Assembly (NCBI RefSeq): GCF_044324785.1
Contig: NZ_CP172127.1
Origin: Escherichia coli
GTDB taxonomy: Bacteria > Pseudomonadota > Gammaproteobacteria > Enterobacterales > Enterobacteriaceae
Reading direction: 5' to 3' (one strand)
Length of the DNA stretch: 64,000 bases
The position numbers are program-made. Positions 16,001 to 22,000 of the stretch are shown one piece after another (the first letter of the stretch is position 1; each line of letters starts with the position of its first letter).

Positions 16001-19000
16001 GCATCGGGCGGAGTTGCTCCTGCATCGTGGTGGACGGCTCAACCTCTTCAGTCAGGTGTGCAATCTCCTGCACCGCATTCACATACGCCATTTCGCTGGC
16101 GATGAGTTCGTCCCACTGTTCTTCTATTGCCAGGCGTAACATGAGCTGGCTTTTTTCGACGAGTTGTTGCCAGGCGAAATACAAATGCGGTGCATGGTTC
16201 ATCAGACTGGGTCCTGAATCAAAGAAGGGGAGAGTAAAGACTCTTTCCAGGCATCGGCAATATTACGCATTAATGCTTCCACTTCTTCGACTGCGGAGAC
16301 ATCGTTGCGTAAATTGGCTTGCAGCAAGCGCCTGACCATATAGCTATAAAGAGCAATCAAGTTTTGGGTTAGTTCGTCTTTGCTCTCTTCATCAAGACTC
16401 ACCCGCAGCCCGTTCTCAATGATGTTGATCGCTTTTGACAAAGAGACGCCTTTGCCTTGCTGATTGTTGTCCTGCATAAACAGGCGCGCTCTAACCAGTG
16501 CGCTCAGCACTCCATCAAATAGCATGGTGACCAGCTGTTGCTGGCTGGCGCTCATTACGGCGCTTTCGACGCCAATTTGTGCATAGGCTTTTGAGCCGCT
16601 CGCGGTATACATGCTGACCTCCGTGATCAGGAATTACTCATTGCAGTAAATTGTTGGCTGAGATAGGTACTGGTGTTATTCAGTTTGCTCATCATGGTAT
16701 CTAATTGCGTAAACTGTGCAGTGTAACGCGCCACGGTGTCATCAATGCTGGCACTGACGGATAGATACTGTTTGGTCAGTTTTTTCAGTGTGGCGTTAAT
16801 ACTGTCCTGTGCGCTATCAATAATGCCATCATCGGCAAGGTAACCTTTTACCTCGGTGGCAATTTTGGTGGTAATTCCTGTTTCTTTACCATCGCCTACC
16901 AGCAATTCACGTACGGATGCTGTATTTTCATTCAGGACTTTTTTGAGTTTATCATCATCAATTTTCAGCTTACCCGTCGTGCCGTCCTGCTTAATCCCGA
17001 TCTCGTTTAATGTTTTGAAGGCACCGTCGCTGGCACCGTTTGCAAATTGTGCGCGGATGCCGCTTTGAATTGTACGTACAACGCTGTCTCCGAGAAGTGC
17101 ACCATTATTTTTATCTTGTGCTTCAGCACCTGGGTCTACTTCTTTATATTTTGTCAGGGTGTTAAAGGTGTCAATGAGGGAGTTATATGAATCCACCCAG
17201 CCTTTAATTGCTTCGGTTGCTTTATCGTTGCTTTTTGTCACCGTGACCCGGACGTCAGTGACTTTTTTGGTCAAATCGAGAGTCACTCCCTGAGGAGCAT
17301 CGGTAATTTTGTTACTTGAACGTTCAATATCGATACCGTTAACGTTTAGCTGTGCATTTTGCGCGTTAACCAGTTCCTTCATATTCCCGGTGTTGGTCTT
17401 GCTGTCATAAGCCAGCAGATCATTTAATTTACTGTCACCCTCAACAGATATGGTCATTTTATTGGCCAGACCTTCACTGGCGGTCAATACCAATTGATAG
17501 TTACCATCTTTGACTTTAACGATACTAGCGGAAATTCCACTATCGGCATCGTTAATGGCTTTGCTGATCTCATCCAATGACGTCTGATCTTTATTGAGCT
17601 TGATTTCCAGCGGCTCTTTACGACCGTCTTGGGTAATTTTTATTGTGCGTGTATCTGATGACTCATCACCCAGTGCATCTTTTGTTGATGCAATGATTGT
17701 CGGGGAATCAGTTCGTAAAGATTGCGCCTGCGCCAGTTGGGTTACGCTGATGGTATAGATACCGGGGGCAGCACCTGCTTCGGTGGAAACTTTAAGGTCT
17801 TCATTGCTACTGGTAACGGTAGTGCTTTTGAACAGATCGGCTTTATTTAACGCAGTATTTGCAGTCTGGAATTTTTCTAATGCACTTTTTAATGTGCCAT
17901 AGGCTGTCAGACGTGCGGTATTGTCACTCTGTTGCTGAGTAATTGGGTTTAAGCGTTTTTTTTCAGCGATGGTCAGGTTGTTTAGCAATGTATCCAGCGG
18001 CAGATTCGAACCAACGCCAAGAGATGTAAATGAAGCCATACCTAATTCCTTTTGATTGCAAACAGTAGATAAGCGGGTTATCGGCAATTTGTGCGCAAAG
18101 TTTAATAGTTGATTCACGAAGATGATGCGCAGAGTAGAGTTGTATATTACGGATATTTCAGCCGTTAAGAAAAAACAGGAGAGAAACTAAAATTTTCTAA
18201 AGTTCGAAATTCAGGTGCCGATACAAGGGGTACGGTGAGAAACCGTGGGCAACAGCCCAATAACATCAAGTTGTAATTGATAAGGAAAAGATCATGGCAC
18301 AAGTCATTAATACAAACAGCCTGTCGCTGTTGACCCAGAATAACCTGAACAAATCTCAGTCTTCTCTGAGCTCCGCCATTGAACGTCTCTCTTCTGGCCT
18401 GCGTATTAACAGTGCTAAAGATGACGCAGCAGGTCAGGCGATTGCTAACCGTTTTACGGCAAATATTAAAGGTCTGACTCAGGCTTCCCGTAACGCGAAT
18501 GATGGTATTTCTGTTGCGCAGACCACTGAAGGTGCGCTGAATGAAATTAACAACAACCTGCAGCGTATTCGTGAACTTTCTGTTCAGGCAACTAACGGTA
18601 CTAACTCTGACAGTGACCTGACCTCCATCCAGTCCGAAATCCAGCAACGTCTGAGTGAAATTGACCGTGTTTCTGGTCAGACTCAGTTTAACGGCGTTAA
18701 AGTGCTGGCTTCTGATCAGGATATGACTATTCAGGTTGGTGCAAACGACGGCGAAACAATTACTATTAAACTGCAGGAAATTAATTCCGACACACTGGGA
18801 TTATCTGGTTTTGGTATTAAAGATCCTACTAAATTAAAAGCCGCAACAGCTGAAACAACCTATTTTGGATCGACAGTTAAGCTTGCTGACGCTAATACAC
18901 TTGATGCAGATATTACAGCTACAGTTAAAGGCACTACGACTCCGGGCAAACGTGACGGTAATATTATGTCTGATGCTAACGGTAAGTTGTACGTTAAAGT

Positions 19001-22000
19001 TGCCGGTTCAGATAAACCCGCTGAAAATGGTTATTATGAAGTTACTGTGGAGGATGATCCGACATCTCCTGATGCAGGTAAGCTGAAGCTGGGGGCTCTA
19101 GCGGGTACCCAGCCTCAAGCAGGTAATTTAAAGGAAGTCACAACGGTGAAAGGGAAGGGGGCTATTGATGTTCAGTTGGGTACTGATACCGCAACCGCTT
19201 CTATCACAGGTGCAAAACTCTTTAAGTTAGAAGACGCTAATGGCAAAGATACTGGTTCATTTGCGTTGATTGGTGATGACGGTAAACAGTATGCAGCGAA
19301 TGTTGATCAGAAAACAGGTGCAGTTTCCGTTAAAACAATGTCTTACACTGATGCTGACGGTGTCAAACACGACAATGTTAAAGTTGAACTGGGTGGAAGC
19401 GATGGCAAAACCGAAGTTGTAACTGCAACCGATGGCAAAACTTACAGTGTTAGTGATTTACAAGGTAAGAGCCTGAAAACTGATTCTATTGCAGCAATTT
19501 CTACGCAGAAAACAGAAGATCCTTTGGCTGCTATCGATAAAGCACTGTCTCAGGTTGACTCGTTGCGTTCTAACCTAGGTGCAATTCAAAACCGTTTCGA
19601 CTCTGCCATCACCAACCTTGGCAACACCGTAAACAACCTGTCTTCTGCCCGTAGCCGTATCGAAGATGCTGACTACGCGACCGAAGTGTCTAACATGTCT
19701 CGTGCGCAGATCCTGCAACAAGCAGGTACTTCTGTTCTGGCACAGGCTAACCAGACCACGCAGAACGTACTGTCTCTGCTGCGTTAATCGCCGCTATATT
19801 CTGCCAAACCCCGCTCCGGCGGGGTTTTTTCTACCCGGCAAATAGCCGTAACCCCCAAATAACCCCTCATTTCACCCACTAATCGTCCGATTAAAAACCC
19901 TGCAGAAACGGATAATCGTGCCGATAACTCATATAACGCAGGGCTGTTTATCGTGAATTCACTCTATACCGCTGAAGGTGTAATGGATAAACACTCGCTG
20001 TGGCAGCGTTATGTCCCGCTGGTGCGTCACGAAGCATTGCGCCTGCAGGTTCGACTGCCCGCGAGCGTGGAACTTGACGATCTGCTACAGGCGGGCGGCA
20101 TTGGGTTACTTAATGCCGTCGAACGCTATGACGCCCTACAAGGAACGGCATTTACAACTTACGCAGTGCAGCGTATCCGTGGCGCTATGCTGGATGAACT
20201 TCGCAGCCGTGACTGGGTGCCGCGCAGCGTGCGACGCAACGCGCGTGAAGTGGCACAGGCAATAGGGCAACTGGAGCAGGAACTTGGCCGCAACGCCACG
20301 GAAACTGAGGTAGCGGAACGTTTAGGGATCGATATTGCCGATTATCGCCAAATGTTGCTCGACACCAATAACAGCCAGCTCTTCTCCTACGATGAGTGGC
20401 GCGAAGAGCACGGCGATAGCATCGAACTGGTTACTGATGATCATCAGCGAGAAAACCCGCTACAACAACTGCTGGACAGTAATCTGCGCCAGCGGGTGAT
20501 GGAAGCTATCGAAACGTTGCCGGAGCGGGAAAAACTGGTATTAACCCTCTATTATCAGGAAGAGCTGAATCTCAAAGAGATTGGCGCGGTGCTGGAGGTC
20601 GGGGAATCGCGGGTCAGTCAGTTACACAGCCAGGCCATTAAACGGTTACGCACTAAACTGGGTAAGTTATAACGTCAGTAAATGCCGCACTTTAATTTTG
20701 ACTACCAGGAGTTCTTAATGATGGTGCAGCACCTGAAAAGACGGCCATTAAGCCGCTATCTTAAAGACTTTAAACACAGCCAGACCCATTGCGCGCATTG
20801 CCGTAAATTACTCGATCGCATTACCTTAGTTCGCGACGGCAAAATAGTGAATAAAATCGAGATTTCCCGCCTGGACATGCTGCTTGATGAAAATGGCTGG
20901 CAAACGGAACAAAAATCATGGGCGGCATTGTGCCGATTTTGCGGTGATTTACATTGCAAAACGCAGAGTGATTTTTTCGATATTATCGGTTTTAAGCAAT
21001 TTCTTTTTGAGCAAACTGAAATGAGCCCAGGTACGGTGCGTGAATATGTCGTTCGTCTGCGCCGTTTGGGTAATCATCTACACGAGCAAAATATTTCCCT
21101 CGATCAGCTGCAGGACGGTTTCCTTGATGAAATCCTCGCCCCATGGCTGCCCACCACCAGCACCAACAATTACCGCATCGCGTTACGGAAGTATCAACAC
21201 TATCAGCGTCAAACGTGTACCGGACTTGTGCAGAAATCCTCCAGCCTGCCTGCTTCTGATATATATTAAATAAGAATAAGATGTAGCGGAGTTGTTTTTG
21301 TGTTTACAAACAATGGCTCTACACTGCAAACAGACATAACAACATTCGGGGTGAATATGAAATTAGCACATCTGGGACGTCAGGCATTGATGGGTGTGAT
21401 GGCCGTGGCGCTGGTTGCGGGCATGAGCGTTAAAAGTTTTGCAGATGAAGGTCTGCTTAATAAAGTCAAAGAGCGCGGCACGCTGCTGGTAGGGCTGGAA
21501 GGAACTTATCCGCCGTTCAGTTTTCAGGGAGATGACGGCAAATTAACCGGTTTTGAAGTGGAATTTGCCCAACAGCTGGCAAAACATCTTGGCGTTGAGG
21601 CGTCACTAAAACCGACCAAATGGGACGGTATGCTGGCGTCGCTGGACTCTAAACGCATTGATGTGGTGATTAATCAGGTCACCATTTCTGACGAGCGCAA
21701 GAAAAAATACGATTTCTCTACCCCGTACACCATTTCCGGTATTCAGGCGCTGGTGAAAAAAGGTAACGAAGGCACCATTAAAACGGCTGATGATCTGAAA
21801 GGCAAAAAAGTGGGTGTCGGTCTGGGCACCAACTATGAAGAGTGGCTGCGTCAGAATGTTCAGGGCGTCGATGTGCGTACCTATGATGATGACCCGACCA
21901 AATATCAGGATCTGCGCGTAGGCCGTATCGATGCGATCCTCGTTGACCGTCTGGCGGCGCTGGATCTGGTGAAGAAAACCAACGATACGCTGGCAGTAAC

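What the first reader, a model, noticed from the sequence alone, without database searches (positions are those of the whole stretch)
18294..19787. fliC allele with a mosaic variable domain and termini unlike K-12 as I recall them
The conserved N- and C-terminal domains are intact, but the N-terminus (LLTQNNLNKSQSSLSSAIERL) and C-terminus (ending QNVLSLLR) differ from the K-12 H48 termini as I recall them. The central domain (about residues 170-400) shares only short blocks with H48 (TGAVSVKT, DGKTEVV, DGKTY). The neighbouring fliD is 470 aa rather than the 468 aa I recall. This suggests a different H serotype acquired by recombination across the fliC-fliD segment.
Basis: partly seen in the sequence, partly recalled or inferred. 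Interest (0 to 1): 0.3.

Follow-up and report, generated by a model that had tools for sequence, protein, structure and literature searches.

The report
E. coli H2 flagellin gene cassette
This is the ordinary, already catalogued H2 version of the E. coli flagellin gene, sitting with its cap gene fliD in a 3.2-kb recombination block unlike K-12's; most of the gene is almost identical to flagellin genes of the sister species E. fergusonii.

Summary
Window 18294-19787 (+) is an intact 497-aa fliC whose termini and centre differ from K-12 H48, next to a 470-aa fliD.

It is the known H2 allele: one residue from the flagellin of O103:H2 and O43 strains, and the exact protein is on 298 public contigs.

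Against K-12 the flanks are 97-100% identical. A sharply bounded block (about 16590-19810: fliS codons 1-8, fliD, the spacer, fliC) is only 42-81% identical, so allelic replacement by recombination is supported. It is not private to this strain: 862 of 5426 complete E. coli genomes carry the same fliD (>=99%), always with the same kind of fliC ends (H2, H8, H11, H16, H21, H45).

The block is layered:
- fliD and the left part of the spacer are closest to Citrobacter freundii-complex alleles (FliD 93-95% aa, 85.6% nt).
- The fliC promoter and gene are 95-100% nt identical to E. fergusonii fliC, where flanks are 79-87%.
- A 360-nt D3 core is the exception, with 39-44% synonymous change against 1-8% elsewhere.

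So the variable domain is a mosaic, but not with H48; the short blocks shared with H48 lie in or beside a conserved barrel motif. Known allele; modest evolutionary interest.

The parts
15837..16202 (-). fliT (FliD chaperone), K-12-type; lies outside the exchanged block
   Evidence: ORF; Pfam FliT; 97.5% aa to K-12 but about 35% to Citrobacter, Salmonella and E. fergusonii
16202..16612 (-). fliS (flagellin chaperone), a hybrid: codons 9-136 are K-12-type; codons 1-8 (MYTASGSK) belong to the exchanged block
   Evidence: Alignment at the breakpoint; the same junction in six S-type strains; Pfam FliS
16589..16612 (.). Left recombination breakpoint against K-12 (fliS codons 1-8)
   Evidence: Identity changes from about 99% to about 55% here
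16627..18039 (-). fliD, filament cap, 470 aa, 'S-type' (Salmonella/Citrobacter clade)
   Evidence: 49.8% aa to K-12 FliD; end-to-end match to Salmonella FliD 9gnz_R, 704 bits; 93-95% aa to Citrobacter freundii-complex alleles L052 and L054; >=99% nt in 862 E. coli genomes
18078..18104 (-). Sigma-28 (FliA) consensus promoter for fliD: TAAACTTT-N11-GCCGATAA
   Evidence: Pattern match; 0.05 expected by chance in the window
18198..18224 (+). Sigma-28-type promoter for fliC: TAAAGTTC-N11-GCCGATAC (one mismatch in the -10 element). The segment shared with E. fergusonii begins here
   Evidence: Sequence read; identity to E. fergusonii rises from 0.5 to 0.98 at about 18200
18294..19787 (+). fliC, flagellin, H2 allele, 497 aa
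18810..19170 (+). D3-core segment of fliC (residues about 173-293): the anciently diverged part that sets H2 apart from the E. fergusonii alleles and probably carries the H2-specific epitopes (the epitope role is inferred)
   Evidence: 50-85% nt and 58-68% aa to E. fergusonii, while the rest of the gene is 95-100%; 39-44% synonymous change at identical-aa codons against 1-8% elsewhere; Pfam Flagellin_D3 at 196-286
19809..19831 (+). fliC intrinsic terminator (CCCCGCTCCGGCGGGG followed by a T run) and right recombination breakpoint; full identity to K-12 resumes by about 19848
   Evidence: Terminator scan; alignment
19953..20672 (+). fliA (sigma-28), outside the block, 100% aa identical to K-12; drives the two promoters above (inferred from the established flagellar regulon)

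Best explanation
The feature is the standard H2 allele of the E. coli flagellin gene fliC. It lies in a 3.2-kb allelic cassette (fliS codons 1-8, fliD, the divergent promoter region, fliC) that replaced the K-12-type version by homologous recombination. The crossovers are in the 5' end of fliS and at the fliC terminator.

How it works (inferred from the established flagellar regulon): FliA (sigma-28) transcribes fliC from the promoter at 18198-18224. Flagellin is exported with help from FliS and polymerises under the FliD cap. The conserved ends build the filament core, and the exposed D2/D3 centre is the H2 antigen.

The cassette is one of three deep fliD classes in E. coli and is present in about 16% of complete genomes. 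It is itself layered. The fliT and fliS genes are K-type. The fliD gene and the left part of the spacer belong to the Salmonella/Citrobacter clade. The fliC promoter and gene are shared almost identically with E. fergusonii, apart from a D3 core of separate, older ancestry.
For: - H2 identity; the exact protein is on 298 public contigs.
- Sharp breakpoints and a collinear backbone.
- Cassette frequency and linkage: S-type fliD in 862 genomes, the contiguous fliD-5'/spacer/fliC-5' junction in 858, the S-type fliC 3' end in 862.
- Single origin: the same fliS junction in six strains, and four- to eight-fold lower diversity inside the block (0.0025 per site) than in the flanks (0.019 and 0.009).
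- fliD classes: 3189 K-12-like, about 1320 of a third class at 73% nt, 862 S-type.
- Clade assignment.
- Citrobacter relatives.
- E. fergusonii sharing and the D3 mosaic.
- Promoters and terminator.
- Domains.
Against: - Serological H2 reactivity, motility and promoter use were not tested; they rest on strain labels and on what is established for the regulon.
- The linkage claim rests on genome counts, not on a per-genome table.
- The direction and timing of the E. coli / E. fergusonii exchange are unresolved.
- The window allele carries K219 where the O103:H2 and O43 protein has Q; its antigenic effect is unknown.
- One strain labelled O111:H2 has a 3' end only 96.9% identical to the window. 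This was not followed up.
Confidence: 0.9

Rival explanations
1. The central domain is a patchwork assembled from H48-like and other E. coli H-type segments.
For: Three short blocks are shared with H48.
Against: Sensitive blastn of the 691-nt centre finds only the same 112 H2 genomes, all full length at >=99%, with no partial matches to other types. The blocks lie in or next to the Pfam FLIC_barrel match (348-392), and two of them also occur in Salmonella FljB 6jy0. The centre is 38.8% identical to H48 overall and 9-23% to H16 and H45.
Confidence: 0.03
2. The block is a recent import into this strain directly from Salmonella or Citrobacter.
For: FliD and the FliC ends are much closer to Salmonella and Citrobacter than to K-12.
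Against: DNA identity to every sampled Citrobacter or Salmonella is only 71-86% for fliD, about the same as the flanking genes (78-86%). The same block is >=99% identical in 862 E. coli genomes of many serotypes.
Confidence: 0.03
3. The S-type fliD-fliC cassette is the ancestral Escherichia version, kept as an old polymorphism, and the K-12-type fliC ends, fliD, fliS and fliT are the later import into E. coli.
For: E. fergusonii, the sister species, has S-clade FliS, FliT and FliD. K-type versions are closest to Superficieibacter (FliD 80%, FliS 85%, FliT 72%, FliC C-terminus 97%) and not to Citrobacter or Salmonella. The S-type block is as diverged from Citrobacter as the flanks are.
Against: Every E. 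coli examined, S-type strains included, has K-type fliS and fliT, with one shared junction in fliS codon 8/9. S-type fliD diversity within E. coli (<=1%) is below flank diversity, which points to a single later introduction or sweep. S-type FliD is only 71% identical to E. fergusonii FliD.
Confidence: 0.2
4. The near-identity of fliC with E. fergusonii reflects strong purifying selection on the filament core, not gene exchange.
For: The flagellin ends are highly conserved proteins in general.
Against: Synonymous change at identical-aa codons is only 1-3% in the ends, while flanking genes are 79-87% identical in DNA and the D3 core shows 39-44% synonymous change. Selection on the protein cannot remove synonymous divergence. 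The high-identity tract also covers the untranslated promoter and leader from about 18200.
Confidence: 0.02

Closest known systems
E. coli fliC H2 (flagellin WP_000079820.1 of O103:H2 and O43 strains)
   Same: Same locus, same length (497 aa), 496 of 497 residues identical, 8-22 nt differences; same fliD allele, spacer and fliS junction.
   Different: K219 in the window against Q219. The K219 form is itself common, with the exact protein on 298 contigs.
E. coli K-12 fliC H48 and fliD (NC_000913, b1923 and b1924)
   Same: Same genomic position and gene order, same domain families, same sigma-28 control; flanks 97-100% identical.
   Different: FliC N-terminus 82%, centre 39%, C-terminus 68%; FliD 50%; spacer about 51% nt. 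K-12 has about 155 nt more of fliC 3'UTR, with two REP elements (the FliX sRNA), which the window lacks.
Escherichia fergusonii fliC (P0156 and P0157, and contigs L055, L057, L058)
   Same: From the promoter to about nt 520 and from about nt 880 to the terminator, 95-100% nt identical to the window. Protein N- and C-terminal regions 100%, D2b 93-97%.
   Different: D3 core 58-68% aa, with 39-44% synonymous change. fliD 70% nt (71% aa). fliS and fliT are of the other clade. Flanks 79-87% nt.
Salmonella enterica FliC/FljB and FliD (PDB 6jy0, 1ucu, 9gnz) and Citrobacter freundii-complex alleles (L052, L054)
   Same: Same clade of filament core and cap. Against Salmonella, the FliD match is end to end and N-terminal residues 12-32 are nearly the same. 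Against Citrobacter L052, FliD is 93% and flagellin 86% identical over the full length, including an H2-like centre.
   Different: DNA identity is only 71-86%, the same as background divergence. In those genera fliS and fliT are also S-type, whereas in the window they are K-type.

Membership tests
Bacterial flagellin (FliC/FljB family) | N-terminal and C-terminal helical regions (Pfam Flagellin_N and Flagellin_C) above the curated cut-offs | tested here: met
   154.5 and 107.7 bits against cut-offs of 26.6 and 23; Flagellin_D3 and FLIC_barrel also match
E. coli H2 fliC allele | Central variable region matches that of H2-labelled strains and no other type | tested here: met
   112 genomes, all >=99% over the full length, including O103:H2 (several strains), O45:H2 and O43 RM10042; no other matches even with blastn word size 11; one aa difference
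E. coli H2 fliC allele | Located at the fliC locus between fliD and fliA, not at flkA, fllA, flmA or flnA; ORF intact | tested here: met
   Synteny with K-12 and an intact 497-aa ORF
E. coli H2 fliC allele | Agglutination of motile cells by H2 antiserum | not testable with these tools
   Serology; rests on the strain labels in RefSeq
Salmonella/Citrobacter-type ('S-type') filament gene set | FliD and the flagellin termini closer to Salmonella and Citrobacter than to K-12 | tested here: met
   FliD 76-86% against 49-55%; FliC N-terminus 84-91% against 80-85%; FliC C-terminus 79-88% against 65-77%; PDB matches
Salmonella/Citrobacter-type ('S-type') filament gene set | The chaperone genes fliS and fliT are of the same clade | tested here: not met
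   Window FliS is about 65% and FliT about 35% identical to Citrobacter and Salmonella, but 96-97.5% to K-12; only fliS codons 1-8 are S-type. The window is therefore a hybrid, not a full member
Mosaic (intragenic recombinant) flagellin gene | Adjacent segments of the gene with significantly different divergence from the same relative, including at synonymous sites | tested here: met
   Against E. fergusonii, synonymous change is 1-3% (N and C regions), 6-8% (D2b) and 39-44% (D3 core); boundaries at about 18810 and 19170
Mosaic with H48 or other E. coli H types | Sub-segments of the centre with close DNA matches in other E. coli H types | tested here: not met
   No partial matches; the shared blocks are conserved barrel motifs
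FliX sRNA (fliC 3'UTR, K-12) | A 3'UTR of about 200 nt containing REP elements upstream of the terminator | tested here: not met
   The window has about 43 nt from the stop codon to the end of the terminator and no REP. No Rfam family reaches its gathering score in 15500-21500; the one listed match, RsmY at the terminator (21.6 bits against 57), is sub-threshold. FliX-S includes a REP according to PMC10578931

The most novel reading that the evidence does not exclude
The H2 flagellin gene belongs to a flagellin lineage shared across species boundaries. E. coli and E. fergusonii recently exchanged a fliC gene with its promoter (99% DNA identity where the neighbouring genes are 79-87% identical), and only the exposed D3 core was swapped for an anciently diverged version. 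H2-like variable domains also exist in the Citrobacter freundii complex (72% aa). This gives concrete examples of what Hu and Reeves (2020, PMC7018530) reported as not yet found, namely relatives of an E. coli hypervariable region in other species. The complete linkage of S-type fliD with S-type fliC ends (862, 858 and 862 genomes) might additionally reflect cap-flagellin co-adaptation and not only physical proximity.
Probability: 0.6. Interest if true: 0.4.

Novelty: already known. Interest (0 to 1): 0.3.

Why it matters
For the scan, this finding can be closed as a correctly noticed but ordinary serotype difference: H2 instead of K-12's H48.

It has some wider value as a clean worked example of how flagellar antigens are built. 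Recombination layers are nested: chaperone genes of one clade, a cap gene of another, and a flagellin gene shared with a sister species whose exposed D3 core has a separate ancestry. This pinpoints residues 173-293 as the likely H2-specific part. It suggests in-silico H typing could confuse E. fergusonii H2-like alleles with H2. It also offers natural hybrids, with K-type FliS and FliT working alongside S-type FliC and FliD, for studying chaperone and cap compatibility.

Tried and rejected
- Recalled PMC id for Wang et al. 2003 (the species-wide fliC survey): the paper is not held, so its grouping of conserved regions could not be checked.
- Protein search with the 230-aa centre alone: it returned only two fragments and missed even the full-length H2 cluster, so it was discarded as a failure of the word-index step. 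The full-length query worked.
- K-12 FliX query against E. coli genomes: swamped by REP copies elsewhere in the genome (40 or more places per genome), so it gives only a rough idea of how many genomes have a K-12-like fliC 3'UTR.
- Rfam scan of 15500-21500: only a sub-threshold RsmY-like hit on the terminator hairpin, judged to be chance.
- The chimera preprint: contains nothing on core, cap or chaperone cross-compatibility.
- Literature searches for a described fliD dimorphism or an E. coli / E. fergusonii fliC exchange: nothing specific found in the held library, which lacks most subscription journals.
- Structure prediction: not run, because Pfam and PDB sequence matches already fix the fold class.
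Full report
**What is there.** Window 18294-19787 (+) is an intact ATG-initiated ORF of 497 aa. Pfam finds Flagellin_N, Flagellin_D3, FLIC_barrel and Flagellin_C. It sits in a normal E. coli flagellar region, inverted relative to K-12: yedD, amyA, fliT, fliS and fliD on one side, and fliA, fliZ, tcyJ and dcyD on the other.

The whole 64-kb window is collinear with K-12 from 2,021,932 to 1,956,219. There are three exceptions: the fliD-fliC block, the MG1655-specific IS1 upstream of flhDC, and a 770-bp yecT segment that the window lacks.

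- The quoted N- and C-terminal strings are present and do differ from the real K-12 protein.
- FliC is 81.8%, 38.8% and 67.7% identical to H48 in the N-terminal, central and C-terminal parts.
- The three short blocks exist in both proteins, at window residues 341, 370 and 380.
- fliD is 470 aa, against 468 in K-12, and only 49.8% identical.

**Which allele.** The 691-nt centre matches 112 of 5426 complete E. coli genomes, every one over its full length at 99% or better. They include several O103:H2 strains, an O45:H2 strain and an O43 strain. Neither megablast nor word-11 blastn finds anything else. The protein differs from WP_000079820.1 of O103:H2 and O43 strains at one residue, K219 for Q. 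The exact window protein is on 298 public contigs and the exact FliD on at least 1000. This is the known H2 allele.

**Recombination block.** A global alignment with K-12 gives 0.94-1.00 identity in 200-nt windows on both sides. Between about 16590 and 19808 it drops abruptly: fliD about 0.55, the spacer about 0.51, the fliC 5' end 0.77-0.81, the centre 0.42-0.55 and the 3' end about 0.67.
- The left edge falls in fliS codons 8/9, so FliS begins MYTASGSK instead of MYAAKGTQ.
- The right edge is at the fliC terminator hairpin; full identity resumes by about 19848.
- K-12 has about 155 nt of extra 3'UTR there, containing two REP elements.

**A population-level cassette.**
- The window's fliD is 99% or more identical in 862 genomes and undetectable by megablast in the rest.
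- K-12-like fliD is in 3189 genomes at 95-100% identity. A third class (73% nt and 79% aa to K-12; for example O104:H4) is in about 1320.
- The contiguous fliD-5'/spacer/fliC-5' junction is in 858 genomes, and the window-type fliC 3' end is in 862. By count, this fliD always travels with this kind of fliC end.
- Labelled members include H2, H8, H11, H16, H21 and H45.
- Six strains share the identical fliS junction. Diversity inside the block (0.0025 per site) is four to eight times lower than in the adjoining flanks (0.019 and 0.009), which fits one origin followed by spread among E. coli lineages.

**Affinities of the block.** Window FliD matches full-length Salmonella FliD end to end (704 bits) far better than the E. 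coli FliD fragment 5h5v (307 bits). The flagellin ends also follow Salmonella FljB/FliC more closely than K-12 FliC.

Across 25 of the enterobacterial loci fetched from a scan of species-representative genomes, window FliD is 59-86% identical against 49-55% for K-12 FliD. AmyA, FliA and TcyJ are about equally similar for the window and K-12 (91-95% in Citrobacter). The two Superficieibacter loci are the exception.

Unexpectedly, the FliS and FliT of both E. coli types are only about 65% and 35% identical to the Citrobacter and Salmonella proteins. Superficieibacter carries K-12-like versions (FliD 80%, FliS 85%, FliT 72%, FliC C-terminus 97%). The window is therefore a hybrid: K-type chaperone genes with an S-type cap and flagellin.

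At the DNA level the block is as far from Citrobacter (fliD 72-79%, spacer 84-87%, fliC ends 82-89%) as the flanks are (amyA 80-81%, fliA 84-86%, tcyJ 85%). No sampled species is a recent donor.

**Closer relatives found in the large protein collection.** The nearest FliD proteins outside E. coli (93-95% aa) are on two contigs, L052 and L054. Their flanks are 93-98% nt identical to C. portucalensis and C. braakii, so they come from the Citrobacter freundii complex. Their fliD is 85.6% nt identical to the window, again about background level. L052 also encodes a flagellin 86% identical to H2 over its full length, and 72% in the centre.

A full-length FliC search gave a graded H2-like series: unnamed clusters at 90-91%, E. 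fergusonii at 87%, Citrobacter at 71-86% and Atlantibacter at 65-67%, with K-12 H48 at 58%. The 90-91% clusters lie on contigs whose flanks are 99.5-99.7% identical to the E. fergusonii contig, so they are E. fergusonii too.

**Exchange with E. fergusonii and the true mosaic.** Against three E. fergusonii contigs, the window is 95-100% nt identical in two tracts: from about 18200 (the fliC sigma-28 promoter) to about 18810, and from about 19170 to the terminator at about 19810. By contrast fliD is 70%, the left part of the spacer 45-68%, and the flanking genes 72-87% identical.

Only about 18810-19170 (residues 173-293, overlapping the Pfam D3 match) is diverged.

| Compared with window H2 (aa identity) | N-terminus 1-172 | D3 core 173-293 | D2b 294-400 | C-terminus 401-497 |
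|---|---|---|---|---|
| E. fergusonii (3 alleles) | 100 | 58-68 | 93-97 | 100 |
| Citrobacter L052 | 98 | 64 | 83 | 98 |
| E. coli H16 | 91 | 13 | 23 | 84 |
| E. coli H45 | 89 | 9 | 23 | 88 |
| K-12 H48 | 81 | 21 | 47 | 68 |

(All values.)

At codons that encode the same amino acid, synonymous differences are 1-3% in the ends, 6-8% in D2b and 39-44% in the D3 core. The core therefore has a separate and much older ancestry. The rest of the gene was exchanged between the two species recently. The direction is unresolved. E. fergusonii FliS and FliT are S-clade, so E. coli's K-type chaperone genes are not shared with its sister species.

**How it works.** Shown here:
- A perfect sigma-28 consensus upstream of fliD, at 18104-18078 on the minus strand.
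- A near-consensus sigma-28 site upstream of fliC, at 18198-18224.
- A terminator at 19809-19831.

Inferred from established knowledge of the flagellar regulon: FliA-dependent transcription, FliS-assisted export, polymerisation under the FliD cap, and the exposed D2/D3 domains acting as the H antigen.

**Comparison with the literature.** Hu and Reeves (PMC7018530) place E. coli flagellins in two main clusters. They state that variable regions share no blocks between forms, and that none has a relative in another species. The first statement agrees. The second is now contradicted by the E. fergusonii and Citrobacter H2-like alleles. I found no paper describing the fliD classes or the E. fergusonii relationship, but the library is incomplete.

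**Verdict.** The allele is already known (H2), and the "mosaic with H48" argument is wrong, although a real mosaic exists. Interest is modest: an instructive case of layered, cross-species recombination at the flagellar antigen locus.

Noticed in passing
window 19788-19847: The fliC 3'UTR is only about 43 nt to the end of the terminator and lacks both REP elements. In K-12 those elements make up the body of the Hfq-binding sRNA FliX / FliX-S (about 200 and 100 nt; PMC10578931). H16, H45, H8 and O104:H4 loci have similarly short fliC-fliA spacers (163-165 nt against 320 in K-12). FliX regulation may therefore be allele-specific.
   Followed up: partly
window 15837-16612; loci L003-L042, L034, L035, L058: In every E. 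coli type examined, FliS and FliT are only about 65% and 35% identical to those of Citrobacter, Salmonella and even E. fergusonii, although the neighbours AmyA and FliA are 90-97%. Superficieibacter has the E. coli-like versions (85% and 72%). The K-12-type fliC ends, fliD, fliS and fliT look like an old replacement in the E. coli lineage.
   Followed up: partly
E. coli genome collection; L049: fliD comes in three deep classes in E. coli: K-12-like (3189 of 5426 genomes), a third class at 73% nt and 79% aa to K-12 (about 1320; for example O104:H4), and the window's class (862).
   Followed up: partly
window 58383-58423: yecT and yecV (K-12 1,961,798-1,962,569, between argS and flhE) are absent. 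A 40-nt stretch with a terminator-like hairpin takes their place, and tblastn finds no YecT anywhere in the window.
   Followed up: yes
window 42450-42457: There is no IS1 upstream of flhDC. The IS1H of MG1655 (1,978,503-1,979,270) is missing, as expected for a non-laboratory strain.
   Followed up: yes
window 48204-48230 (+): A second perfect sigma-28 consensus (TAAAGTTT-N11-GCCGATAA). By synteny it lies just upstream of tar (K-12 position about 1,972,748), so it is the promoter of the tar-tap-cheRBYZ operon.
   Followed up: partly
L045 (O111:H8 strain 8E) and L048 (strain CUWW10): In other strains carrying this cassette, fliC is interrupted by insertion sequences: IS1203 in the H8 allele and IS1 near the 5' end of an H2 allele. 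Both probably make the strain non-motile.
   Followed up: no
plasmid NZ_CP063337.1, 26338-26571: A 115-kb E. coli plasmid (strain BS74R-D) carries a FliC/FljB-family flagellin gene whose 3' end is 88% identical to the window's fliC 3' end.
   Followed up: no
L002 (JAIJJM010000335.1): A 3.5-kb contig filed under a Collinsella MAG encodes a FliD 100% identical to the window's. This is almost certainly E. coli contamination of the bin.
   Followed up: no
NZ_CP077551.1: A strain labelled O111:H2 has a fliC 3' end only 96.9% identical to the window, like the non-H2 members of the cassette family. Either the label or the allele may be atypical.
   Followed up: no
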